From assembly GCA_977018835.1 (NCBI GenBank), contig OZ361256.1, positions 7,378,001 through 7,442,000 of the forward strand: a stretch of DNA of 64,000 nucleotides, written 5' to 3'. Each line of letters opens with the position of its first letter. The first letter of the stretch is position 1. The notes beneath the pieces were generated by a model. The model saw only the letters and a list, made by a program, of their open reading frames with translations, was not told the DNA's origin and searched no databases. Shown in pieces: positions 2,720 through 63,251 of the stretch. Both the position numbers and the translations under genes were made by a program. Origin of the DNA: Minutocellus sp. GHC0000111. Lineage: Eukaryota.

Positions 2720-5462
2720 ATGGTGTCACCGGCAGGCGTAGGCTCCGCCGCTGGGATCGCTGCTCCCCCCAGCCTCGGCCCGTCCCTCCAGGACGTCCTC
2801 GCGGCCCTTCGCTCTCCAGGCGACGAAGACGACGGTGTCCATTACGGCGCCGCTGCTCGTGGTGGTGGCTGCGATGGTGACGCGGAGGAGGAGGTATCTC
2901 CCTCCAAATTTCTGCTGGGACTCTTTGATGATGACGATGGCGATGTCGTCGGCGAGCCAGCTGCTGCAGCTTTGCCCGCAGAGGCGCCAAGCTCTGGATT
3001 GGATCCGACCATGGCGCCTCTCTGGGACGACAACGTCGCCCTGTCGTTTCCCAGTGCTCGGCTGGCAGGCGAACCGCAGCCCGAGCTGGTGGCTTCCAGT
3101 AGCGGCAGCAGCAGCGGTGCCGCTACGACAGACCCCCAAAAGATGGTTCCAGCCCACGACGAATCCACCCAGCTGGTGTACGACATCCTGGGAGCCGACG
3201 AGATCGAGCAGCTCGCCACGGGGATGCTCGAGATGGGTTCTCCGATTATGGCTGTATCCAATGCCTCGGCGGCCGAGACTGCTGGCGCTTCGGCTTCGGA
3301 TGCAGCAGCCATTGGGATGGATATTGGGCGACCCGACGGCGTTGGTTCTTCGACTGGCAGCATGATGATGAGCAGGATGCGGATGGCCTCGTCGTGGCAT
3401 CTCGGTCCTGGGGCCAACGCCAATGCCAAGCGCAGGAGCAAGGTCAGGCAGGAGGACGATATCGGCAATGCCATAAACAGCAGTGGCAGAAGGATCCTCC
3501 CGGTTCGAAAGGCAAGGATCAACCCCGGCATCGAGTACGACGATGCCGCCACTCCCGCCAATAATGGCGGCGCTGGTACCAAGCGACGGAGCAGCGGTGA
3601 ATCGGCAAAATCGGTTGCCTCCGTGACGTCTGCGGATGGCAAGCCTGGCAAGCAGATTGTTCTCAGTGGTGATGAGAGTGGTAGTGGTAGTGGCGGTGGT
3701 AGTGGCGGTGATGGCAACGCCAACAAGAAGAGGAAGAGGAGCAGCACTGGCAGTGGCAGCGGTGGTACCAGCGGTAGCAAGAAGCCTGCCACCACCAAGA
3801 AGAAGGCCGACGCCATCGCCAAGAAGGCGGCCGCAAATCTGGGATTGGATCCCAAGGCGGTGCCGCAGCGTCCCAAGCAGGCTCCCAACACCTTCATTCT
3901 GTTTTGCAACGCGAATCGCAGCCGCATCAAGGCGGAGAATCCGAACTTCAAGCCGTCGCAGATGAGCTCGCTGCTCGGCGAGCAGTGGAAGGCGCTGTCG
4001 GACAGGGGCAGGAGGCCGTACGTCGATGCTGCCGCGAAGGCAAACAAGGAGTACGCCGTCAAGTTGGAGGCGTACAATACCGCCATGGAACGATTCCGCG
4101 AGACCGACGATGGGAAGCGGTGGGTAGAGGAGCAGGATCGGCTCTTGCGCCAGTCGGTCGAGGAGGAGGGTGGAGTATGGGATTCCAGCATGGGCATTGG
4201 TACCAAGGAGAAGGAGGATGAGGAGAAGGCCATTGCGGCCGTCGTGGCGGCGGCTGCCGCGGTCAAGGCTCAGGAGGATCGTCAATTGAAGGCCAAGGCT
4301 GCTCTCCAGAGGCAGGAGGAAGAAAAGCTCGAAAAGGATCGTCAGCTGTTTGAGAAGGCCAATATTGCCCGGCCACCTCGTCCTCCAATCAAGCCCAAGA
4401 GCGCCTTCTCCTTCTTTAGCGATGCTCTGTATGAGAAACGAAGCTCGAAGGAGAACCGACTGCAACTAGAAGTAGTGACACCAATTACATGTGCGAGCGA
4501 CGAGGATGATTCGTCGTGCCCTGCAATCCTGTACGACCGGCTCCCTCAACCGGAGAAGGAGATGTATGAGGTTATGGCGAACAAGACGCAGATGACCTAT
4601 CAAAAAGCTATAGCGGAATACGAGCAAGAGCTGGAAACAGCTCGCAGCCGCGCAAGGGAGATTATTGACATGCTGGACCCGAAGAAACGCGCTGTCAAGG
4701 TTGATCAGATGATCCTTGAGGTCGCAGCCGTCCGGAGGCAGACTCCTGGTCATGCCGACTGGTTTCTTCCTGACAGGCAGAGGTTGGTTCGGCACCAGCT
4801 CGACTGGAGACTTCGCCAAGCTGCCAAGGCCGGCTGTACGCAGGCGGAATTTTCGAGGAATTTGACAATGTTGTATTCCAGAGAGGGCCGGGAGCAGGAG
4901 GAGAGGAGGAGGCTGGAGCAGATTCGGCTTCAGAGAGAGGCGCAGGAGAAGAGGATTATGGCAGAGACGGAGAAGATGAACCAGCTTCACGAACAGATGC
5001 AGCGGGCGCATCAGCTGCAGCAGTTTCAACAATTGGAGGCGGCGAAGCAGGCCATGCCTTAAGCAGGCCATGCCTTATCCGGGATACCACGTGTCCCAGG
5101 CGTATTACCCACATCAGGCCTACCAGTGGGGGGTCATGATGCCCACGCAGATGCCCAATGCCTATGCCTCTTACTCGGTACCAGCGGTGTCTGAGGCAAA
5201 GAGCGCTCCATCTCAGAATACGAGTAGTGCTCGTCCAACCGCCGCGGTCGCTTCTGGCAAGGCTGCTAGCGTCGAGAACAACAACAACAATCCTCTAATG
5301 GCTCTGGCCATGCTCGCGGAGTGGAACGATCAGCGTGCCCAATCCCAGCCCTCGGCGGCGGTCGATGCACAGACTCATCTCAACGGGGCTACCTCAGCGG
5401 CTTCATCTGTCACCAAAGGGGTTTCATCGGGCGCCAAAAAATCTACAAAGGAGGCGCCATGA
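2720..5462 (+). CDS. HMG-box DNA-binding protein (two HMG boxes, second degenerate); C-terminus split by a 16-bp tandem duplication
   Basis: RPKQAPNTFILFCNANRSRIKAENP...LGEQWKALS...PYVDAA is an HMG box; second box PIKPKSAFSFF...YDRLPQPEKEMY. ORFs 2675..5062 and 5070..5462 join if the duplication at 5045-5076 is removed. Confidence 0.85.
5045..5076 (+). repeat. Perfect 16-bp tandem duplication (AAGCAGGCCATGCCTT x2)
   Basis: Read directly; creates the TAA at 5060-5062. Confidence 0.95.
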
Positions 5463-12533: not shown

Positions 12534-15500
12534 ATGGCTACCGCAGAAGAACCTCCCGCCGAGGGCCGGGTCCTGCGGCTGCACTTTGCCTGCCGGGCGG
12601 CTCTCCCTCACGGCTCGACCCTGCGCGTCACGTCCACCCGCCTTTGGGCCCCGGACTCATCCTCGGCGCACATTACCGAGGGCGAGGCGCCGCAGGGATC
12701 CGAGGACTCCACCGACTTTGACCATCACGGAGCCGACGCCGACAAGCACATGTACGCCTCGAGCGTCGAGATGGTAACGACGCCGGAGACGTATCCCGTG
12801 TGGCGGACCCGAACTCCGGTCGTCGTAGTGGCCAACGCGGCCGGTGGAGACGTTCAGAAGCATCGCTACCGCTACATGGTCGTGACGCCCGGCGTAAACA
12901 TCGAGGGGCTCGATGACGATGATCTTGGAGAGGAGGCCGAGGAGATGGTGACGGCCGAGGCGGCTCCGACCGATTCGCCCGATCATGCCGCCCGTTTGGG
13001 CGGTGGAGCGCACACCACCGATGAGAGTGGGGATGGACCACTCTCAGTGATGATGTGGGAGGATCCCTTTGTGGAGAACCGCGATCCGTCGGTGAGTTTT
13101 TACTATTATGATTTTTGCTCGCACGAAAGAGAGTTTCTTTGGGTGTCAAGGCAGTTGCACAGTGTTTCTGTGATAAAGCAAGTGTCAGTTCCATGGTGTG
13201 AATGCAATTGAACACACCAGGATTTTCATTTGACATTATCGGCTCACTCCTTGCAACTCTTTCCCTCATGACTCTTTCAACAAAAATAGCGCCCCGACCC
13301 ATCCGTCTCCGTCGTATCGCTCCCCTCGGTCCGTCGGAAGAACTTATCCCTCGGTGATCTGCCCTGACGTACCATCGACATCGATCTTACCTCCCTTCCT
13401 CCCTCCGGTGCCATCCAGTCCACTTCTGAGACTGTTCCTGATAGTATGGGCCGGGATGAGTTCAGCGAAGATGGCGTTCGCATCGATCACTGGAATGATG
13501 AGACCGACCTCACCTTCCGTCAGTATCTGGAGCACCAGGAGACTGCTGCCATAAACAAGATCGAGGCCGAGGCCAACAGTATGGAAGACGAGGCTTACCG
13601 CGAGGCTACTGGTAGTGACAACATGGTAATTGATGAGGAGGGTGAGGGAGGTCAGACCGCAACTTCTGGTGGATCTTCTACTCAACGAATGATTCTGGTC
13701 TGTTACCATCTTCCCGTCATCCTGACAAGGAATCCCGCCGATGGTTCCTGGTCGGCATGCTGGTCAGAGTCGCTCATTGCCAAGACGGAGGCGCACACCA
13801 TTACGGAAACATATGAAACTCATTGGGTTGGTACTGTTTCGACGGTCCCTCCCATCGCCACCGATGAGGATAGGGATGCTGTCCGTGCCGTCCTGGAACC
13901 CATGAACTGCACTCCCATCTTCCTCAACTCGGAGGTCGAGGAGGCCCACTACCTCGGCATGTGTAAGCAGGTACTCTGGCCATGCTTCCACAACGTCGAC
14001 CTTCTCGACCTATCCGCGAGTGGCTGGGGACAGCGCGAAAGCATGGAGGTCGTCATCAGCAAGGGTGCCGGTGATGAGGTGAACGTCGGCAATACCGATA
14101 GTGATTGGGACCAGTCCAAGCTCGATGGATGGTGGTCAGCCTACCGAGCCGTCAATAGCATCTTTGCCGACATTATGTCCATGATGCTCCGTCCCAACGA
14201 TATGATATGGATTCATGATTATCACTTGACGCTTTTGCCCAAGATGATTCATGATGCCGAGATTGAAGAGACAGGCAAGAGGACTGTCGAAATGATTTAC
14301 TTCCTTCACATCCCCTTCCCGACAAGTCAGGTGTTCCGCGAGCTCGAGCACGGCGAGGCCATCCTAGAGGGTATGCTCCACGCAGATATGGTTGGATTCC
14401 ATGCCTTTGACCACGCAAGACATTTTCTCAATGCCTCCAAGCGTATCTTAGGTTTGACATACGAGAGTCTTGTCGGTGGTCTCATTGGCGTTCGTTATCG
14501 CAGGAAGAAGGTTCTCGTCACCGTGAGCAACGTGTCTATCGAACCGGACATTATCGACGCGGCTCTGGAACTACCAAGCGTTACAGAGGGCACCAAGGCG
14601 TTGAAGGCGAAGCATGCCGGTCGTCAGATTATCACTGGTGTTGACATTGCCCAGAGACTATCGGGTGTGTTCCTCAAGCTTCTTGGTTACGAACCGACTC
14701 CTACATGACTACCCTGTGTGGCAAACCAAGGTTGTGATGATCCAGAGATGCCTCGTTCCTGGGACCCGTCACGCCGACGAGGCCGATACACTCAAGGAGG
14801 TTCGGGCCCTTGTCAACCGAATAAAGACGAAGTTCGGCGCCGATGTGATTGATTACGAAGAGGTCATCTGCTCGGCTCTTCCCATCGACCAGCGTCTTTC
14901 TCTTTGGTCTGCATCTGATGTATTGAGTGTCACTCCAGTCCGTGAAGGATTCAACACCGTTCCGCTGGAATATGTGTACTCAAGAAAGGAGCCGGCCGTT
15001 CCTGGTGTGGTCCTCACTTCCGAATTCTCCGCCATCAACAGTATTCTCAACGGTGCACTCCGTATCAATCCCTACGATATCCAAATGGCAGTCACGTTCA
15101 TGGACAAGGCTCTCACGATGAGCATTGAAGAGAAGGAGGCTCGCCGTTCTCGTGATATTGAATTCGTCTCCTCTTGTCCCTCTGGCATGTGGACTAGAAA
15201 TGTCCTGCGTGATCTGCGCGATGCTACATCCGGAACGAATGCAGATGGCACCAAGAATGTCTGTGAGGAGGCAGCAGCGAGGATGGAGAGTGTTGACGAG
15301 GCAGCGGCGATACTTTCCACGAACAGCCTTGAATTCCCTCCCCTCAACATTGATGCCGTCACAAGAGCTTACAAATCAGCATCGCAGCGTGTCTTGGTCA
15401 TTGATTTCAATGGAACTCTGGTCATGAAGGAGCCACCGGGCAAGTACCTGAAGCGCGAAATGTTGGGCACAACGGGCAACAAACCTCCCGGAATTGTTCT

Positions 15501-16080
15501 CAAGGCCCTCGCCGATTTGTGTCAGGATCCCAAGAATACTGTTCTTGTCGTGTCTGGAGACACGCAAAAGAATTTGGAAGATGCCCTGGGCAACTTTCCC
15601 GGCCTTGGCCTTGCCCATAGTAACGGCGCTTGCTATTCTGTACCGTTGCCGGGGGAAACCCAGCGCGAGTGGCTTTCTTATGATCTCGGTGTTGATGTGG
15701 AGGCGGTGAAGAAGACGGCATTGCCCATCCTATCAAAAATACACTGCGCGAACGAACGGTTCCTTCGTCAAGCTAACACATCCAGTATTGGCTGGACCTA
15801 CTATTCTTGCGACCCGGAATGGGGAGCACTCCAGGCTTCGTACTTGGTGCCCGAGTTGGAGCGCGAGCTCAGCGCATTCGATGTGCGATTTGTCACGCTC
15901 AAGGGCGTTGTCGAGGTTGTACCGAGGAAGCTGAACAAGGGTCTTGTTGTTAAGAAGATTCTGGAAGAAGTTGCTGGTACCACTGGTGGAAAGCCTGTAG
16001 ATTTTATTCTTTGTATGGGAGATGACGTTTCAGACGAGAAGATGTTCACTTCCGTCTTTTCGTTCATTGCAGAGTCCAAT
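12534..16080 (+). CDS. TPS: CBM20-like + trehalose-6-phosphate synthase/phosphatase (GT20-TPP) fusion; intron 13092-13289; several lesions; 3' end truncated
   Basis: HYLGMCKQVLWPCFH, WIHDYHL, FLHIPFPTSQVFR, GFHAFDHARHF, REGFN..PLEY, LTSEF, DFNGTL (HAD motif), GDDVSDEKMF. GTGAGT...TAG intron in phase 0. Confidence 0.92.
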
Positions 16081-16747
16081 GCACCACTTCAAATGTACCC
16101 ATTCCTTTGTTGGCTTCGACAAAGGTTGCACCGACGGGAACGTCAACCCTCCGCAACATGACCTTCAAGTCGACACCGATACAATCGACATCTGTACCAG
16201 TGTCTCCCATGTCCAGAATCATCATTTCCAATGGTTCTTCGTTGTCGCTGGAACGAACATTGAGCCGGCCGTTGACAACCTTGCTCTCGTTGAAGACGAT
16301 GTGAGCACCATCCGCAGACTGACCAAACGTCTCGGTAAAGTTATCGTAGAACGAAACGTTACCATCCGCGTCGACTCGCAACATTTTCGAAGAACCTCGA
16401 GGAGATGCCGGATATCTGGCGATGGATTCAAGTCGCAAGTCATACGAGAAATCGGCCAGACGGATGGCTGAGGAATCATTGTCTTCATCAGCAGCAGCGC
16501 TACTTGTAGAGCCCATCTTGCGCCAATGAGTGGCATTGTCCGGCACGTCTTTGGAAGTCGGCATGAGTATGGGTGGTTGGGCTGCCGCAAACATGGAGCG
16601 TACGACTACCCGATCCAGAGCATGATGTGATGGGGTTCTACTGCTCGACGATGCAGCAGCGAGATGCCACCGTCGAGCGACGCAAGCGGTCGCCGCTCTC
16701 CCTCGTACTGCTGCGTTCATCTGAGCAAAAAGTGACTGAGCATGCAT
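16064..16747 (-). CDS. queA: QueA-like S-adenosylmethionine:tRNA ribosyltransferase-isomerase, N-terminal part only, with organellar-type presequence (3' truncated)
   Basis: IRLADFSYDL..ESIARYPASPRGSSKML...IVFNESKVVNGRL matches the QueA N-terminal signature (DFDYxLP..IAQxP...SRLL...VFNDTKVxxARL). Arg/Ser/Ala-rich N-terminal leader. Confidence 0.8.
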   Translation of the reverse strand: MHAQSLFAQMNAAVRGRAATACVARRWHLAAASSSSRTPSHHALDRVVVRSMFAAAQPPILMPTSKDVPDNATHWRKMGSTSSAAADEDNDSSAIRLADFSYDLRLESIARYPASPRGSSKMLRVDADGNVSFYDNFTETFGQSADGAHIVFNESKVVNGRLNVRSSDNEEPLEMMILDMGDTGTDVDCIGVDLKVMLRRVDVPVGATFVEANKGMGTFEVVHWTLQ

Positions 16748-35144: not shown

Positions 35145-35981
35145 TCACTTTTCCGACAGCCTGTTTGCAAGCTGCTCAATTGTAACAACTCGATCTCGAA
35201 CCTCGTTCCATCTGCTTCCACCATCCTCCTCCTTCAACGAGGTCTCGAGGTGCATCCGCTCTTCGTCGTCCTCGACAAGAAACAAATGCACATTGGATAT
35301 CGGCAAGGACGTCGATGTGTCCACATTGGACTGCAATATCAACCCGGTCCAACCATAATGCCCGGCCAATGCCACACTGTTCAACCAAAAGGCTCCACTG
35401 TTGACATTGCCTCTCTCTGTCCTCAACTTTGGTATGGATCCGGACAAGTCTGACCGATCGACACCTAAATGCCCAGAGCGAATGACTGCGGCCAAATTGT
35501 CCACGGCAAGCGTTCTCGGAGTTGAAGGCGATCGCACGGCAAGTGGATTGCCAGTACCGTGGTGCTTGTACCTGCCCAGATGAGATTTGATTGTATCGAT
35601 CTGTTTCTGACGTTTTGGGTCGATCCGAGGTGGAGTCCGAGGTGATCGGCTCAATGCTGGTCGGGCTCGCGGTGATGGTGCCGACGGAGACGGAGATGGC
35701 GCGCCAGATGCCACATCCTCGCTGTCGACCATCAACCTCCGTCTGCTCGTGGCCCTGCCAGCCCCCATCTGATCAACGAAGCAGGAGCCAGAAACCGAAG
35801 CCGCCGATGGCGCTGGAGGTGGTGTCGCATGAGCCGCAGCGACGGCGACGCCATGGTGATGTCCAAAGAGAGCAGCGAGGCCAGCGCCGACGCCGCGTCG
35901 TGCGCTCCTCTTTCTCTTGACCCTGGACGCAATACTGCTCCCCGGCGGGGATGATGGTCGATCTTGCTCCGTTGATGCCAT
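35145..35981 (-). CDS. Hypothetical protein
   Basis: 278-aa ATG-initiated ORF with low-complexity N-half and globular-looking C-half; no family recognised. Confidence 0.5.
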   Translation of the reverse strand: MASTEQDRPSSPPGSSIASRVKRKRSARRGVGAGLAALFGHHHGVAVAAAHATPPPAPSAASVSGSCFVDQMGAGRATSRRRLMVDSEDVASGAPSPSPSAPSPRARPALSRSPRTPPRIDPKRQKQIDTIKSHLGRYKHHGTGNPLAVRSPSTPRTLAVDNLAAVIRSGHLGVDRSDLSGSIPKLRTERGNVNSGAFWLNSVALAGHYGWTGLILQSNVDTSTSLPISNVHLFLVEDDEERMHLETSLKEEDGGSRWNEVRDRVVTIEQLANRLSEK

Positions 35982-36111
35982 CTTGCAATCTGCTTACATA
36001 GGCCTACATACATGCACGCTTCCCTTGCTTGTTCTTCGACTGTTGTTGGTTGTTGGCGCTTCGCTGGTTTTCTCGTACGGTACGTACTCAAACACTCAAA
36101 CGCTCATTTTT

Positions 36112-36277
36112 AAGATCAGGATGATGTGTTTAGAGCAGCCGAGATCGATGAGGCCGAACTAGTGGCAAAAGGAAAGGCTTTAGATCTTGAAGTCCGTCGG
36201 TGGTTGGCAAGCAAGATGAATAAGAATCTCACAAAAAGCAGGTTGACAGCGCAGGTGCTAGGAGTGGGAGCGAATGC
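36112..36277 (+). repeat. 166-bp direct copy of 38574-38739 (3' end of the recombinase ORF)
   Basis: Identical except one synonymous change (ACA vs ACC). Confidence 0.97.
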
Positions 36278-36280
36278 GCC

Positions 36281-38984
36281 TTTGCTTCCGAACTTTACCC
36301 GGGTGTTTCGGGGGGATTCCTGGGTAAAGTTTGGCTCGCATGTTTGCTGCGAGAAGACTTCAAGATTTTCCCCGCGATGCCAAGCATCAACTGAAAGCGC
36401 ATCTTGGCTGCGAGCCAAAATAAAAAACAGAAGTCTTTTGACACCATGGCCGCCGCTACTACTGCTGCTACCGCCGCCACGAACGCCACCGCCGGCCTTC
36501 GCCGCACGGCAGTCCCAAGGGCACCACCCGAGTTATCATCGTACAAGACCCGATTCAATGCATATCTTCAGCATATCGGTCTTCCCTTTGTCGACGACTT
36601 GACGCCCGAAGACGTCGCATCGCCCGGCGACATCGAATCAATTATGTGCTCTTGGGCCGAGTACATGTCGACGAACCCTCCGAGGTACATGAACAACCGG
36701 GACAAGCTCCTCAAGGCTGACGGCGTCGGCAACGGCTTCGGCCTCATCAAGGAGTACCTGAAGGACCGGTTCGGCCGCCACGTCGACTGGACCGACGAGA
36801 CCTGGTTCACCCTCTCCAAGGGCGCGCTCGTCAAGAAGCTGGAGAGAGACAGCGTCCGTGGCACATCTGGTGTCGACGAAGTACCCGGCAAGATCGGCAT
36901 CGTTCGCCTCAACCCCGATGCTGGTGTTATTGAAGGACACGACGGTGTCAGCACCAGTCCATTTGCCGACGATGTTCCCGACATGGTCACCATCAATCGC
37001 AAGCTACTGAAAACCAGCAAGCTCGGCGACAAGCACCAGCGACGCCTTGCTCTCAACTTGACATATGCCGCCGATGGCCGGTCCGGGGAGGTGAAATATC
37101 TCAACTACCAGGGCATGACATATGATCCCGTCGGTAATTGTGCTGCTGCTGACTGGAAGGACTTGAAGAATGGCACGACCAGGCCGACTACCTTCTGTAC
37201 AGATTATGACCGGTGGGAGACTTGTGTATTTGATGCCCTTGGTGACCACTGGAGCGTCGATGGTGGCCTCTCTCGTACCTGCAACTCCTCTGGCAATATA
37301 GGTTTTCTCCAGGCCTTTGTTGTACCGATGTGCCAGGCTCGAAGCGATTCCTGGACTTCCAAGACCCTCACCGAAACCTTGCGAGATGATCTGCCGGATT
37401 CAATACGGGACAGCATATCTGGTCGAAGCATGCGATACGGCGGCACTACCCACCTTCACGAAGATCCGTCGGTGAATCATCCAGAGCTCACGGCACGATC
37501 AGGCCACGCTCCTGCTGATAACACCAGGCACTACGTGCTATCTCGGCGGGCGATGCAACATGTGCCAATGAGGTCTCTTGCTGGCCATCCCTCTCCTCGG
37601 AAGTCCCACCGTCCTCCTCGGCTCATTGCCATCAGCACTTTGCCTGACGACATGGCTCTTTTGGATCGGTTTGCAGACAAATTATATCCAATGACAATGC
37701 CTGATTTCAAGGCTGGAGGGAGGCTACGGCAGCTGGTACGGGAGGTGCTGGCCACCAACATTATGAATTTTTCGACGAAGCTGTCTTTTCTTGGAGTTGC
37801 AGGCCCTGCCGTTCGTCGGATGATGAATGTGGGGGACGAGCTCGGTATTGATCTGTCTCAATTGAAGGGGTGGTCAAGGAAGGTGGCAGATGATTTCAAG
37901 GCCATCAATGCACCGTATTCATCCGCTGAGGAGGAGCTTGCTACTGTGGTAGCTGAAAACAATCGTTTAGTATCAGATTTGCGGAAGGAGATTGCCGATT
38001 TGAAGGCTTTGGCAGCAACCAACGCAAGAACAATATGTCACCTTGAGACTCAGCTACAAAAATCGGATGCAAGGGCGCTAAATGGAACATCGGTGCCATT
38101 GATTGCTTCTGGTGGTGTTGATTCGGCGGTTGCTGGTACCAGTAGACCTGCCGGTGGCACCATCCGACGAAGAGAGCCATCCCCACCGCGATCCCCTGGC
38201 CGAAACGTGCGGCAGCGCACCGCTGGAGGTTCTGGCATTATCGGCACCGCAATATCTGCCATTGCAGTATCGCCGGTTGCCATAGCAAGGAGAATGGTTG
38301 GAGGAGCGCCACCGCTACCGACGGCTCTTCGGCCTCCACCGCTACCAACGACGGAGCAGTTGTCAACTGTCAGCAGCGCTGGGGGCAAAAAGAAGAATAA
38401 GTGGTCGCTCATGAGCGAAATAGTAATAGAATTGGCTCGATCTGGAAAGCTGAAGTCAGGGTCGTCGCATGAATCCATGCCTCCGCCGCTGGCAATACTT
38501 CCCAGGGCTTTTGATCGCAATGAAAAGACAAAATATAAGTTGGCAATGCGTGTGGTTGATGCAGCTGTCACAAAAGATCAGGATGATGTGTTTAGAGCAG
38601 CCGAGATCGATGAGGCCGAACTAGTGGCAAAAGGAAAGGCTTTAGATCTTGAAGTCCGTCGGTGGTTGGCAAGCAAGATGAATAAGAATCTCACCAAAAG
38701 CAGGTTGACAGCGCAGGTGCTAGGAGTGGGAGCGAATGCCCAGAAATTACCAGACAATGCATGGCCGAGGTCCAATGGGGGTCTTTTTGGGATGTTTCGT
38801 AAATAAGTAATCATTCATTACCAACACATGTAGTAAACATGAAGTTACCGGTAGTCACATGTAGACTCGCCGAGCAGAGATGCTTTTGTCATTTCGCTCC
38901 CTTTTCCTTCTTTTTCCTTCTTTCTCCTCTTTTTCTTTCCGCGGGTAAAGTTTGCCCTGCGGGTAAACTTGGGAATTTTTGCTT
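36281..38984 (+). mobile_element. Tyrosine-recombinase DNA transposon (Crypton-like), ~2.7 kb, bounded by TTTGCTT direct repeats with subterminal inverted arms
   Basis: TTTGCTT at 36281-36287 and 38978-38984. Arms TTCCGAACTTTACCC (36286-36300) and GGGTAAACTTGGGAA (38961-38975) are reverse complements at 13/15. Single YR ORF inside; no RT or DDE domain seen. Confidence 0.82.
36446..38806 (+). CDS. Tyrosine recombinase (integrase-like) with C-terminal coiled-coil and putative DNA-binding region
   Basis: Catalytic-order motifs ADGRSGEV (R), KDLKNG (K), SGRSMRYGG (H/R-x-x-R), ARSGH (H), TRHYV (Y). Intact and intronless. Confidence 0.85.
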   Translation: MAAATTAATAATNATAGLRRTAVPRAPPELSSYKTRFNAYLQHIGLPFVDDLTPEDVASPGDIESIMCSWAEYMSTNPPRYMNNRDKLLKADGVGNGFGLIKEYLKDRFGRHVDWTDETWFTLSKGALVKKLERDSVRGTSGVDEVPGKIGIVRLNPDAGVIEGHDGVSTSPFADDVPDMVTINRKLLKTSKLGDKHQRRLALNLTYAADGRSGEVKYLNYQGMTYDPVGNCAAADWKDLKNGTTRPTTFCTDYDRWETCVFDALGDHWSVDGGLSRTCNSSGNIGFLQAFVVPMCQARSDSWTSKTLTETLRDDLPDSIRDSISGRSMRYGGTTHLHEDPSVNHPELTARSGHAPADNTRHYVLSRRAMQHVPMRSLAGHPSPRKSHRPPRLIAISTLPDDMALLDRFADKLYPMTMPDFKAGGRLRQLVREVLATNIMNFSTKLSFLGVAGPAVRRMMNVGDELGIDLSQLKGWSRKVADDFKAINAPYSSAEEELATVVAENNRLVSDLRKEIADLKALAATNARTICHLETQLQKSDARALNGTSVPLIASGGVDSAVAGTSRPAGGTIRRREPSPPRSPGRNVRQRTAGGSGIIGTAISAIAVSPVAIARRMVGGAPPLPTALRPPPLPTTEQLSTVSSAGGKKKNKWSLMSEIVIELARSGKLKSGSSHESMPPPLAILPRAFDRNEKTKYKLAMRVVDAAVTKDQDDVFRAAEIDEAELVAKGKALDLEVRRWLASKMNKNLTKSRLTAQVLGVGANAQKLPDNAWPRSNGGLFGMFRK

Positions 38985-39051
38985 TGGGTGTTCCATCCGA
39001 TTTCCTCGAATCGAATCCATTTCCTTTCAATAAGCTGCTACACCGCCAACC

Positions 39052-40545
39052 ATGGGACCCCGTCGCAAGGCATCGCACGATGCCGCCGCATCCTCCTCTG
39101 CCAACACCGACGCCGTCGAGATCAGCATCCCCAACGACGCACTGTACCGCGACCTGGCATCGAACAATTCCTACTTCGACGGCCTCGTCGACATGCTCCC
39201 CTCCAAGCTGTACATTGCCGGCAACACCGGCGACGAGATGTACAATCCCAAGTACAAGCGTGGCCAGCACAAGGAGAGCAAGGAGGCCCGCCGGGCGCGG
39301 AACAAGGCGGCGCGGCTGCAGAAGTTCCAGTCGCCCGAGACGACGCTGGAGAAGAAGGCTCGGTTGGCTCGAGAGGAGGCCGAGATGGATATGGACGGCG
39401 ATAGCAGCAGCGACGACAGTGATGACGAAATGGAGGGTGGCAAGGCTGGTAAGAAACGTCGCATGAAGAAGAATGCCGCCAAGAAGCAGCAGCTGCAGGG
39501 CAAGAAGAAGGCTGGTGCATGGGCCGACGATAGCGATGATGACGGCGACAACGATGGTGATGATATGATGATGTCTGATGATCAGCCAAAGAACAACAAG
39601 AAGAGCAAGTCAACAGCCGATGGTGAAGGCAACGCAGCCGATGCTGATGACGATGACGCCGCTCAAGGAGAGGGAGGGTCGCGCATCGAGGCCCTCCGAG
39701 CCAGACTCCGGGCCAAGATCGCCGAGCGACAGTCGCAGCGTCCTGGTGGGGTGCAGTCTCCCGATGCCGTATCGAAGCGTGCGGCCCGAAGAGCTGAGAA
39801 GCAGCGTCGGGTCGAGGCGGCCAAGAAGCGCGCCGACAAGGGCGGATCGACTCGTGTTGGCAAGAACGATGCCAAGAAGTACAAGGTGTCTGATGCCGAG
39901 CTGGGTGGGACCGTCGTCAACACTGGCCGGGGTGCCAATGGCGGCTCTCGGGAGGAAGATTTGGCCGGGGTGGACTTTGGAGGCATCGCTGGTCTGTCCA
40001 AGAAGGCAACGTATTTGGACAACAAGTCGTTGGCCAAGTCCGGTGGTAAGAAGAAGAGCCTTGACCGGCTCCTGGCCGATGCCGAGAAGAAGCGCGACCG
40101 TCTCCAGGAGCTCAAGGCTGGCACTGAGGAAGACAAGGAGAAGGCCATGCGTATTCAATGGGGAGATACCCTCAAGGAGGCCAGTGGTGAGCGTGTCCGA
40201 GATGATCCTGCTCTCATTCGTAAGGCAATGAAGCGCAAGGCCAAGAAGAAGGCCAAGAGTGCCAAGGCTTGGGAGGCTCGCACGGAGGAGCTCAAGGATG
40301 CCAAGGACCAGAAGCAAAAGATTCGCAGTCACAACCTCGAGAAGCGCAAGCTGGGCGGTACGGTGGCTGCCAACATATCCAAGAAGCGCATCGTTACCGA
40401 AGAGGACAAGGATAATGAGGAGAAGAAGGAGAAGCGACCCCGTCTTGGTCCTTATGCCGGTGCTGGTGGCAAATCCCGTGCTGGTTTCGAGGGCAAACGC
40501 CAGGCTTTCATCAACGAAGCGAAGCCGAGCAAGGGCAAGAAGTAG
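39052..40545 (+). CDS. SURF6: SURF6/Rrp14 nucleolar ribosome biogenesis protein
   Basis: N-terminal YFDGLVDMLPSKLY (RRP14-N); W...LKEASGERVRDDPALIRKAMKRKAKKKAKSAKAW; RAGFEG. Confidence 0.92.
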   Translation: MGPRRKASHDAAASSSANTDAVEISIPNDALYRDLASNNSYFDGLVDMLPSKLYIAGNTGDEMYNPKYKRGQHKESKEARRARNKAARLQKFQSPETTLEKKARLAREEAEMDMDGDSSSDDSDDEMEGGKAGKKRRMKKNAAKKQQLQGKKKAGAWADDSDDDGDNDGDDMMMSDDQPKNNKKSKSTADGEGNAADADDDDAAQGEGGSRIEALRARLRAKIAERQSQRPGGVQSPDAVSKRAARRAEKQRRVEAAKKRADKGGSTRVGKNDAKKYKVSDAELGGTVVNTGRGANGGSREEDLAGVDFGGIAGLSKKATYLDNKSLAKSGGKKKSLDRLLADAEKKRDRLQELKAGTEEDKEKAMRIQWGDTLKEASGERVRDDPALIRKAMKRKAKKKAKSAKAWEARTEELKDAKDQKQKIRSHNLEKRKLGGTVAANISKKRIVTEEDKDNEEKKEKRPRLGPYAGAGGKSRAGFEGKRQAFINEAKPSKGKK

Positions 40546-61703: not shown

Positions 61704-63251
61704 ATGCATCGGATATGCAGTTCGCTCCCCCGTCTCCTATTGACCTTTATTACTATCGTTACTGTTGCCCGAACGTCCAGCGTCGATTCCTTCAGCATTA
61801 TGAGCGGCAGTGCTTGTTGCAAGGCCAAGGCTGCCACGTCGCTTTCATCAGCACAATCATCTGCATCTGAAGCGATGATGAATGGAGCCGCTGATTCGGT
61901 GCAACCGCAATCGCCACCCGTTGCCAGCACCAAGACGAGCAAGCCTAAGCGTACATTTTACAGACGGCCAATTCCCGATACGTGCGTGGCACTGTCAAGT
62001 CCAGAGGGCAGAAAGATTTTTACATCTGCCCACAATTCGGGTGGTCTCAAATCGTTCTTTCCTCTCATGGAGCAGTTCTCGACGCAAACCGAACCAGCCT
62101 ACTGCGGTCCAACGACCCTGGTGGTCATTTTGAATGCACTGGCGGTAGATCCTCGGCGTACCTGGAAGGGGCCTTGGAGGTGGTACGAGGAAAGCTTTCT
62201 GAATTGTTGTGTTGATCTTGAGACGGTGAAGAAAACCGGCATAACACTGGGAACATTTGCGTGCTTGGCCAAATGCCAGGGCCTCACGGTAGAGGCTCAT
62301 CATGGATCGGATAAGTCGGTCGATGAGTTTCGTGATGCCGTCAAGGCTGCATGTTTGGAACATTCAACCAGCACCAACAACAATGGGAACAGCACCGCCA
62401 ATCACCAATTTCTTGCCGTCTCGTATACTCGCAAGGTTGTAGGTCAAACCGGAGATGGACATTTCAGTCCAATTGCTGCCTATGATGAAGCCAGTGACAG
62501 TGTGTTGGTGCTTGATACTGCTCGCTTCAAATATGGACCCCATTGGATGCCGTTGCAGGTGATGTATGATGCCCTCCAACCCATTGACAAGGCGACCGGC
62601 AAAAGTCGAGGATATGTTCTGCTTTCGTATGACTACAATGACCACGATCAATCCATAAATATGCCTCGATCCATTTTGTTCCGATCGAAGAAGGGTCAGG
62701 ACCCCACCCGACGACTGTTCAAGGAATACATGAATGAGATGTCGTACAAAGTTTCGTTTGAGGATACTGTGCTTTATTGGACAAAGGATGGACAAGATGT
62801 TGATTACATTTGGTCAATACTGGATGCTCAGCTTGTCCCAACAAGTGAAGAAGAGGAAGATGTCGTGACAAACGCACGATCTTTACTGACAGATCTCGTA
62901 GGCTATGTAAGTAGCAACGCGTCGCGGGCTGAGATCAAAGAGCGGTACGATGAGCGATTACTGTACGAGTCCAAGTCCATGTGTGCCGATTCTTGCTCGG
63001 GAAATTCTTGTGAGGACACATTTACTTCTCGAAAGATTGCAATTAGTTCTATTGAGGCGATTCTTGTGCTATACTTGTCGACATTGGAGACAGGTGAAAT
63101 TAGAAATTTATTCCAGAGCTTTCAAGAGGAAAGCGGCGAGAAAGACTATCCAAATTTGACCTATGAGCAGTTGATATGCGAGGCCGATTTGATTCGCTAT
63201 GCAATCGAAGCCAGTGATGAATCGGAAGATGATGCCTTTGGGAGTATGTAA
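61704..63251 (+). CDS. PCS: Phytochelatin synthase (glutathione gamma-glutamylcysteinyltransferase)
   Basis: FYRRPIP, QTEPAYCGPTTL (catalytic Cys), DPRRTWKGPWRWY, GHFSPIAAY (His), LDTARFKY (Asp). Confidence 0.95.
   Translation: MHRICSSLPRLLLTFITIVTVARTSSVDSFSIMSGSACCKAKAATSLSSAQSSASEAMMNGAADSVQPQSPPVASTKTSKPKRTFYRRPIPDTCVALSSPEGRKIFTSAHNSGGLKSFFPLMEQFSTQTEPAYCGPTTLVVILNALAVDPRRTWKGPWRWYEESFLNCCVDLETVKKTGITLGTFACLAKCQGLTVEAHHGSDKSVDEFRDAVKAACLEHSTSTNNNGNSTANHQFLAVSYTRKVVGQTGDGHFSPIAAYDEASDSVLVLDTARFKYGPHWMPLQVMYDALQPIDKATGKSRGYVLLSYDYNDHDQSINMPRSILFRSKKGQDPTRRLFKEYMNEMSYKVSFEDTVLYWTKDGQDVDYIWSILDAQLVPTSEEEEDVVTNARSLLTDLVGYVSSNASRAEIKERYDERLLYESKSMCADSCSGNSCEDTFTSRKIAISSIEAILVLYLSTLETGEIRNLFQSFQEESGEKDYPNLTYEQLICEADLIRYAIEASDESEDDAFGSM

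What the first reader, a model, noticed from the sequence alone, without database searches (positions are those of the whole stretch)
36281..38984. Intact tyrosine-recombinase (Crypton-like) element whose joined ends form a loxP/dif-like core site
Seen: one uninterrupted ORF (ATG 36446-38806) with R-K-(H/R)xxR-H-Y motifs. Left end reads cc-TTTGC-TTCCGAACTTTACCC (36279-36300); right end reads GGGTAAACTTGGGAA-TTTTTGC-tt (38961-38984). The two 15-bp arms are reverse complements at 13/15 positions and TTTGCTT is directly repeated at both ends. Circularising at that repeat gives GGGTAAACTTGGGAA-TTTTTGC-TTCCGAACTTTACCC, i.e. inverted arms around a 7-bp asymmetric spacer. Established: this is the geometry of tyrosine-recombinase core sites (Cre/loxP, Flp/FRT, XerCD/dif); Cryptons are YR-only DNA transposons with short terminal direct repeats and proposed circular intermediates, and CryptonS is known from stramenopiles. 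Inference: a recently active, possibly undescribed diatom YR family whose recombination site can be read directly, so a candidate eukaryotic site-specific recombinase/att pair. The ORF is unbroken although many host genes here are damaged.
Basis: partly seen in the sequence, partly recalled or inferred. Interest (0 to 1): 0.88.

Follow-up and report, generated by a model that had tools for sequence, protein, structure and literature searches.

The report
Young Crypton transposon with lopsided ends
A 2.7-kb piece of DNA repeated in many near-identical copies carries one intact gene for a predicted cut-and-rejoin enzyme and likely moves by looping out as a circle between two 7-base repeats, which would make it a small, handy test case for how such little-studied jumping genes work.

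Summary
The 786-aa ORF is intact. Its family, traced to about 25% identity, keeps R-E-K-R-H/W-Y invariant, and its N-domain folds most like Cre's; the catalytic fold was not modelled. Public contigs cover 36282-38982 at about 25-50 times flank depth, with sharp ends and varied flanks; copies at 98.6-99.7% protein identity lie on many Mb-size contigs. The true terminal repeat is the 7-mer TTTTTGC: next to the right arm, but 7 nt outside the left arm, both in other copies and in a 72%-identical relative. Joined ends would therefore give arms 14 bp apart, not a loxP-like 7. Here the left repeat appears split by a missed 164-nt copy of the element's own ORF, so this copy may be stuck. No circle or clean empty site was seen; only contigs were available. 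Verdict: a Crypton-type, probably diatom family with Starship-like asymmetric inverted ends. This scan earlier noted Cryptons with inverted ends in other protists.

The parts
36107..36111 (+). First five T's of the inferred left 7-bp terminal repeat (TTTTTGC), separated from its final GC by the insert
   Evidence: Sequence; intact form at the same position in L001 and other copies. The split is inferred.
36112..36277 (+). 166-nt, 99.4% copy of the element's own ORF bases 38574-38739; its last 2 nt (GC) may be the end of the left terminal repeat, giving a 164-nt insert
   Evidence: The host-insert junction is carried by one contig in each of X8 and X13 (same sample) reaching 36141. The insert-element junction is not among the rows shown.
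36278..36285 (+). Constant offset between the left terminal repeat and the left arm: 7 nt (GCCTTGC) in other copies, 8 nt here through an extra T
   Evidence: the upstream extension of P0018 (F-L-R-L-A-S-E-L-Y-P) is compatible with it; 7 nt of different sequence in L001
36286..36300 (-). Left arm: inverted copy of the 15-bp end motif
   Evidence: 13 of 15 match to the right arm; 11 of 15 in L001
36322..36336 (+). Inner left copy of the arm motif, forming a local inverted pair with the left arm (gap 21 bp; 11 bp in L001)
36446..38806 (+). Intronless 786-aa ORF, predicted tyrosine recombinase. Four-helix N-domain aa about 25-135; catalytic region with R212, E215, K241, R327, R330, H354, Y363; helical domain about 380-490; coiled coil about 493-546; disordered 548-650; C-terminal helical domain about 650-770
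38900..38940 (+). Pyrimidine tract before the right-end motifs, conserved in L001
38943..38957 (+). Inner right copy of the arm motif, 18 bp before the right arm (also 18 bp in L001)
38961..38975 (+). Right arm, directly next to the terminal repeat
38976..38982 (+). Right 7-bp terminal repeat TTTTTGC; true right end at 38982
   Evidence: Contigs from all 4 runs leave the window at or within 3 nt of 38982 into different flanks; identical in L001
39052..40545 (+). Host SURF6/RRP14 gene; its ATG is 69 bp from the element's right end (not part of the element)
   Evidence: Pfam PF04935 E=1.4e-25, PF15459 E=3.1e-9
35145..35981 (-). Divergent host ORF with no Pfam match; the element sits in the short head-to-head gap between this ORF and SURF6 (not part of the element)

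Best explanation
This is one copy of a young, multicopy 2.7-kb element whose single gene is predicted to be a tyrosine recombinase that likely moves it by recombination between two 7-bp TTTTTGC repeats. Shown: sharp ends, varied flanks, many near-identical copies, conserved catalytic residues, and the end layout repeat-7 nt-arm ... arm-repeat in two subfamilies. Inferred: the recombinase (Y363 as nucleophile) would exchange strands within the 7-mer, excising a circle whose junction has the arms 14 bp apart and leaving one 7-mer behind. It would then integrate into TTTTTGC-like host sites, the right repeat coming from the element and the left, more variable one from the target. The four arm motifs are likely recombinase binding sites. 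The right arm sits where a core site should. The displaced left arm and inner copies more likely act as accessory (arm-type) sites, perhaps bound by the C-terminal domain. In this copy the left repeat appears to have been split by a 164-nt insert templated from its own ORF, so it may supply protein but excise poorly.
For: Single-contig depth 3460 and 3426 over the element against 68.5 and 73.3 (left flank) and 113.6 and 124.9 (right flank) in X8 and X13, ratios 27-51. Right flanks differ among the loose-end rows. Cluster of 72 members; 15 listed, on 11 distinct contig lengths of 0.5-3.3 Mb, with 7 full-length, one sequence on 10 contigs; those other than the window's own are 98.6-99.7% identical. 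L001 (72% aa) has perfect TTTTTGC at 2649 and 5368 with the same layout. In a 27-sequence alignment, R212, E215 and K241 are in 22 of 22 rows covering them, R330 in 24 of 24, Y363 in 25 of 25, and position 354 is H in 11, W in 12, L in 1. dN/dS is 0.155 over aa 25-400 against L001. ESM features score 0.95-0.97 to diatom and oomycete clusters and to NDC10_II, Phage_integrase, DUF3435 and DUF3504 clusters. N-domain: best of 48,161 chains is Cre (Z 7.5, rmsd 4.0, 86 aligned), QRICH1 rank 3, Ndc10 rank 7. Precedent: CryptonF-1_cRei excises cleanly and targets a near copy of its terminal motif (PMC9977147 passages); Starship circles were detected (10.64898/2026.09.21.753150).
Against: No circle joint in 4 runs; these are contigs only, and Starship junctions were just 36 reads against 6,959, so this is weak. 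No clean empty site: one X8 contig joins different upstream sequence to 38983, that sequence is not in the window, and the left flank has about half the depth of the right. No Pfam, PHROG or PDB sequence hit to any YR. AlphaFold left the catalytic region under pLDDT 50 twice. Foldseek found nothing at E<=0.001, and Z 7.5 for a helical bundle is below the tool's stated trust level. The canonical His of HxxR is R, K or Q in all 24 rows. Read laying warns that summed depth is not a copy number. Ends were read from only two subfamilies.
Confidence: 0.75

Rival explanations
1. One reading: crossover between the right repeat and the TTGC just outside the left arm, giving a symmetric loxP/dif-like site with a 7-bp spacer.
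For: In this subfamily the 7-nt offset ends in TTGC, matching the last four bases of the terminal repeat, and the geometry fits the 6-8 bp spacer rule quoted in PMC3212892.
Against: 6 of 6 left-end contig records shown carry the extra GCC and an outer TTTGC; P0018 is compatible with this. L001 has CAATCAG there, with no TTGC, and its best inverted match is at offset 7. The fifth matching base and the TT depend on a private extra T and on flank.
Confidence: 0.08
2. The element is mobile, but spreads mainly without a free circle, for example by one-step or replicative YR exchange between an element end and a distant target, which also causes rearrangements. This locus would be such a breakpoint or a self-insertion into a fragment of another copy.
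For: Copy number is high. The 166-nt piece ends in TGC exactly where the element begins. The two flanks differ in depth, and the other allele at 38983 is unrelated upstream. CryptonF-1_cRei increases in copy number and mediates inversions and translocations.
Against: L001 has two perfect 7-mers as expected from circle integration. TTTTT just left of the insert plus GC at its end rebuilds the 7-mer, which favours a simple insert. The right flank does not continue the ORF, so this is not a simple nested insertion.
Confidence: 0.12
3. The ORF is not a working tyrosine recombinase: either another kind of transposase making 7-bp target duplications inside subterminal inverted repeats, or a domesticated YR-like gene.
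For: No profile hit to any YR family, and the catalytic fold was not modelled; HxxR His is not kept.
Against: The repeat has the same sequence across copies and subfamilies, unlike a target-site duplication. R-E-K-R-H/W-Y order and invariance to about 25% identity, ESM neighbours and the Cre-like N-domain point to YR. Tens of copies with differing flanks exclude a single syntenic domesticated gene.
Confidence: 0.05

Closest known systems
CryptonS elements of oomycetes and Phaeodactylum tricornutum (Kojima & Jurka 2011, PMC3212892; passages, section 8 and supplement 1 read)
   Same: YR-only DNA element of about 3 kb with a short, constant terminal direct repeat and a C-terminal extension without a Pfam GCR1_C match. 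The one diatom member, CryptonS-1_PTri, also has a 7-bp repeat (CTGTAAG). Non-autonomous derivatives are known.
   Different: Repeat sequence TTTTTGC rather than TATGG, TTACTG or CTGTAAG. Four subterminal arm motifs in an asymmetric inverted layout, whereas Cryptons are described as lacking terminal inverted repeats. Tens of copies against 4 for the diatom family. Relationship of the proteins was not tested.
CryptonF-1_cRei of Chlamydomonas reinhardtii (PMC9977147; passages)
   Same: Terminal motif on the element matched to a slightly degenerate target; insertions near genes; association with rearrangements.
   Different: That element was seen to move in mutation-accumulation lines and uses a 5-bp motif; here activity is inferred from youth of the copies.
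Starships (PMC10104507, PMC9156397, PMC11162782, PMC13465315 passages; 10.64898/2026.09.21.753150 parts 1-2 of 4)
   Same: YR at the 5' end, short direct repeats by target microhomology, inverted ends described as often asymmetric (PMC13465315), circular intermediate.
   Different: Starships are fungal, tens to hundreds of kb, carry cargo and have DUF3435; this is 2.7 kb, has no cargo and no DUF3435 profile hit.
Cre/loxP, Flp/FRT, XerCD/dif core sites (spacer rule from PMC3212892; the rest recalled)
   Same: Cre-like core-binding N-domain; catalytic residue order; inverted binding motifs near a 7-bp crossover.
   Different: Arms would be 14 bp apart with the crossover off-centre; targets are many degenerate 7-mers, not one unique site.

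Membership tests
Crypton (YR-only DNA transposon) | Encodes a tyrosine recombinase with catalytic R-(K)-H-R-(H/W)-Y | tested here: inconclusive
   R212, K241, R330, H/W354 and Y363 invariant, but HxxR His is R/K/Q; ESM 0.95-0.97 to YR clusters; Cre-like N-domain Z 7.5; no profile hit, catalytic fold not modelled. Likely met, not proven.
Crypton (YR-only DNA transposon) | No reverse transcriptase or other transposase inside the element | tested here: met
   The single ORF fills 2,361 of about 2,705 bp with no Pfam hit to RT or DDE.
Crypton (YR-only DNA transposon) | Short terminal direct repeat similar across copies, not a variable target-site duplication | tested here: met
   TTTTTGC at both ends of L001, at the right end of the window and in contigs; left copies TTTTGC or TATTTGC.
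Crypton (YR-only DNA transposon) | Interspersed multicopy with different flanks | tested here: met
Crypton (YR-only DNA transposon) | No terminal inverted repeats (descriptive feature in PMC3212892, PMC13465315, PMC8969392) | tested here: not met
   15-bp subterminal inverted arms, 13 of 15 here and 11 of 15 in L001. They are short and offset, so such motifs could have been overlooked in described Cryptons; this is why it is filed as a variant.
Crypton (YR-only DNA transposon) | Clean excision leaving one repeat; circular intermediate (proposed) | tested here: inconclusive
   No joint in contigs of 4 runs; raw reads were not available.
CryptonS | YR falls in the CryptonS clade with the conserved CryptonS C-terminal region | not testable with these tools
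   No Repbase sequences were on hand; the nearest ESM clusters are unnamed diatom and oomycete proteins; the deep HMM search never ran because the queue was full.
CryptonS | Terminal repeat mostly TATGG (5-6 bp; 7-bp CTGTAAG in the diatom family) | tested here: not met
   The repeat is TTTTTGC; its length equals the diatom member's.
CryptonF | C-terminal GCR1_C domain | tested here: inconclusive
   No Pfam hit; ESM 0.84 to a cluster in which 20% of members carry GCR1_C, a lead only.
Starship | DUF3435 captain and large cargo | tested here: not met
   2.7 kb, no cargo, no DUF3435 profile hit; only ESM similarity at rank 12.
DIRS/Ngaro/VIPER YR retroelements | RT/RNaseH and split direct repeats shared by all copies | tested here: not met
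   No RT; the 166-nt repeat is private to this locus, since other copies have different left flanks.
loxP/dif-type core site | Inverted arms separated by 6-8 bp after joining the ends | tested here: not met
   14 bp in both subfamilies.

The most novel reading that the evidence does not exclude
A currently active, diatom-wide lineage of tyrosine-recombinase transposons, distinct from CryptonS, that uses a new site architecture: arms 14 bp apart, an off-centre 7-bp crossover and phased accessory sites read by a separate C-terminal domain. It would be a minimal single-gene eukaryotic integrase system with Starship-like asymmetric ends, usable to show Crypton-type circles and to deliver DNA to TTTTTGC sites.
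Probability: 0.25. Interest if true: 0.72.

Novelty: new variant of a known kind. Interest (0 to 1): 0.5.

Why it matters
In the papers read here, Crypton movement was first observed in Chlamydomonas (PMC9977147), and the circular intermediate was shown for Starships but remains proposed for Cryptons. This family is small, intronless, high-copy and very young, with ends readable in two subfamilies, so the circle model and the role of each end motif can be tested directly. It also suggests that short offset inverted motifs may have been overlooked in Crypton ends.

Tried and rejected
No whole genome is held for this window and L001's record is not held, so no genome-wide census of ends was possible. 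Pfam, PHROGs and PDB sequence searches with the protein or with profiles found no YR, only weak coiled-coil noise. tblastn against plasmids: no match. Viral and GTDB contigs: no relatives; the right-end motif had 0 matches in viral contigs. Rfam: 0 matches in 35500-39500. The full-length AlphaFold model (pLDDT 49.9) gave no meaningful Foldseek hit. The second model (55.2) gave none at E<=0.001, though Cre rows had the highest probabilities, up to 0.51 over 113 columns. The 1.84-billion-protein HMM search never ran, so distant kin and a phylogeny against known Cryptons are missing. Only one read-laying result was obtained, so the other allele at this locus stays unresolved. Expression is not claimed: 10 RNA runs hold the sequence or part of it, but the one laid (X4) gave a contig spanning the whole element plus about 6.7 kb beyond it, as DNA would. 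Rejected: split direct repeats of a Ngaro-type element (the repeat is private to this copy); simple nested self-insertion (the right flank does not resume the ORF); pure assembly artefact of the insert's left junction (present in X8/X13 contigs). Paper searches that found no description of this family or of offset inverted ends in Cryptons; Repbase entries and most subscription papers are outside that library. Supplements 2-6 of PMC3212892 were not read.
Full report
Observation. The ORF 36446-38806 is intact (786 aa). The arms at 36286-36300 and 38961-38975 match at 13 of 15 positions, which 39 of about 20,000 random pairs of 50-bp zones from the window achieve. The arm motif occurs four times (inverted at 36300; direct at 36322, 38943 and 38961), and a 166-nt, 99.4% copy of ORF bases 38574-38739 lies at 36112-36277, directly against the left end. 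That copy is the only self-match in the window at E<=1e-3. The neighbours are ordinary eukaryotic genes, and the element sits between a divergent ORF and SURF6, 69 bp from the SURF6 ATG.

It is a young multicopy element. The window's protein belongs to a 90% cluster of 72 sequences. The 15 listed lie on contigs of 11 distinct lengths (0.5-3.3 Mb), 7 are full length, and one sequence is on 10 contigs. The full-length ones other than the window's own are 98.6-99.7% identical to it. These could come from more than one assembly. I laid 4 of the 22 listed runs, from at most 3 samples. In X8 and X13 (one sample), single contigs over the element have depth about 3,430-3,460, against 68-73 on the left flank and 114-125 on the right, ratios of 27-51. 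The tool warns that depth is not a copy number, so I read this as tens of copies. Coverage steps up near 36282 and down at 38982 in all four runs. Of the loose-end table, 18 rows were shown and 5 were not. The window copy differs from the contigs at 5 positions plus one extra T.

The ends. At the left, all 6 contig records shown continue 9 nt beyond 36282 as TTTTGCGCC or ATTTGCGCC. A metagenome relative, L001 (72% aa; 1 of 109 pattern matches confirmed), has a perfect TTTTTGC at 2649 and 5368. The left one is followed by 7 nt of different sequence and then the arm, the right one directly follows the arm, and a register scan peaks at offset 7. The spacing of the two right motifs (18 bp) and a pyrimidine tract are also kept. 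The gap between the two left motifs is 21 bp here and 11 bp in L001, about one helical turn apart, on two examples only. The upstream extension of P0018, from another contig, reads as expected for the intact left end; this is compatible evidence, not proof. Joining the ends at the true repeat puts the arms 14 bp apart with the 7-mer off-centre, outside the 6-8 bp spacer of classical core sites (PMC3212892 passage).

This copy. The window has TTTTT at 36107-36111, then the ORF-derived piece, then GC at 36276-36277 and the offset. The simplest reading, which is inferred, is a left TTTTTGC split by a 164-nt templated insert with TGC microhomology, as repair of a break at the recombination site might leave. 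The host-insert junction is present in X8 and X13 contigs. Against a tidy story, one X8 contig joins other sequence to 38983, that sequence is not in the window, and the left flank has half the depth of the right. The other haplotype is thus divergent or rearranged rather than a clean empty site. This remains unexplained.

The protein. No Pfam, PHROG or PDB sequence profile matches a recombinase. Three homologue searches reached relatives down to about 25% identity, mostly unnamed; one is from the diatom Aulacoseira subarctica. A diatom host is inferred from this and, not determined. In 27 aligned sequences, R212, E215, K241, R330 and Y363 are invariant in all rows covering them, and position 354 alternates H/W, which I recall as typical of tyrosine recombinases. 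The His of HxxR is R, K or Q. dN/dS against L001 is 0.155 for aa 25-400. ESM features score 0.97 to unnamed diatom and oomycete clusters and 0.95-0.96 to NDC10_II, Phage_integrase, DUF3435 and DUF3504 clusters; 10 of the 10 best named hits share a family or clan. AlphaFold modelled the N-domain and the helical region well but not the catalytic core. The N-domain's best match among 48,161 chains is the Cre N-domain (Z 7.5, rmsd 4.0, 86 residues), with the Crypton-derived QRICH1 at rank 3 and Ndc10 at rank 7. Such Z values are not decisive for helical bundles, but the three YR-related hits agree with the other evidence.

Mechanism. Shown: ends, repeat, copy number, conserved residues. Inferred: Y363-dependent exchange within the 7-mer excises a circle, and integration uses TTTTTGC-like targets, which fits a constant right repeat and a more variable left one. 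The same polarity is reported for CryptonF-1_cRei (PMC9977147 passages). The right arm is placed as a core site. The left arm and inner motifs more likely serve as accessory sites, by recalled analogy to lambda and Tn916 integrases; the C-terminal domain is a candidate reader, with only a weak GCR1_C-like lead (0.84). No circle joint appeared, but Starship junctions were 36 reads against 6,959 terminal reads in raw data (10.64898/2026.09.21.753150, parts 1-2 of 4 read), so contigs cannot exclude circles. Contigs sharing only the first 139 bp or the last 57 bp or fewer, and internally deleted proteins (P0004, P0051, P0056), suggest non-autonomous partners.

Comparison and verdict. It works like a Crypton and meets the repeat, single-gene and multicopy criteria. 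It departs from the published description of no inverted repeats (PMC3212892, PMC13465315, PMC8969392; passages) and resembles Starships in having asymmetric inverted ends (PMC13465315 passage). A 7-bp repeat in a diatom Crypton is already on record, with another sequence (supplement 1 of PMC3212892). CryptonS membership could not be tested. Passages of PMC10104507, PMC9156397, PMC11162782, PMC12130899 and PMC3627910 added context only. Six paper searches found no description of this family. Earlier notes of this scan report Crypton-like elements with inverted ends in other protists (unchecked); none matched this sequence. Verdict: new variant of a known kind, interest 0.5.

Noticed in passing
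window 36112-36277 and 38574-38739: A 166-nt self-templated copy of the ORF's 3' part sits inside the inferred left terminal repeat; possibly a scar of break repair at the recombination site.
   Followed up: partly
window 35700-36111 and 38983: The left flank has about half the depth of the right flank, and one X8 contig joins sequence not found in the window to 38983: a divergent or rearranged second haplotype.
   Followed up: partly
window 36282-36420 and 38926-38982: Contigs sharing only the left 139 bp (X7) or only the right 57 bp or fewer (X4, X8, X13) point to non-autonomous or sibling elements using the same ends.
   Followed up: no
relatives of window 36446-38806 (proteins P0004, P0051, P0056, P0053): In-frame deletion forms: recombinase domain fused straight to the C-terminal domain (P0004 on 6 contigs, P0051 on 3), one form lacking the catalytic domain, and one copy interrupted after WKDLKNG.
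   Followed up: no
window 13446-16161: The trehalose-6-phosphate synthase/phosphatase gene is split into two overlapping ORFs at about profile position 293-298: frameshift, intron or sequencing error.
   Followed up: no
L001 2677-2687: The shorter gap between the left motifs contains a further partial GGGAAAGT motif; the gap differs from the window's by 10 bp.
   Followed up: no
window 61704-63251: Phytochelatin synthase gene (PF05023, E=1.1e-84); ordinary host gene.
   Followed up: no
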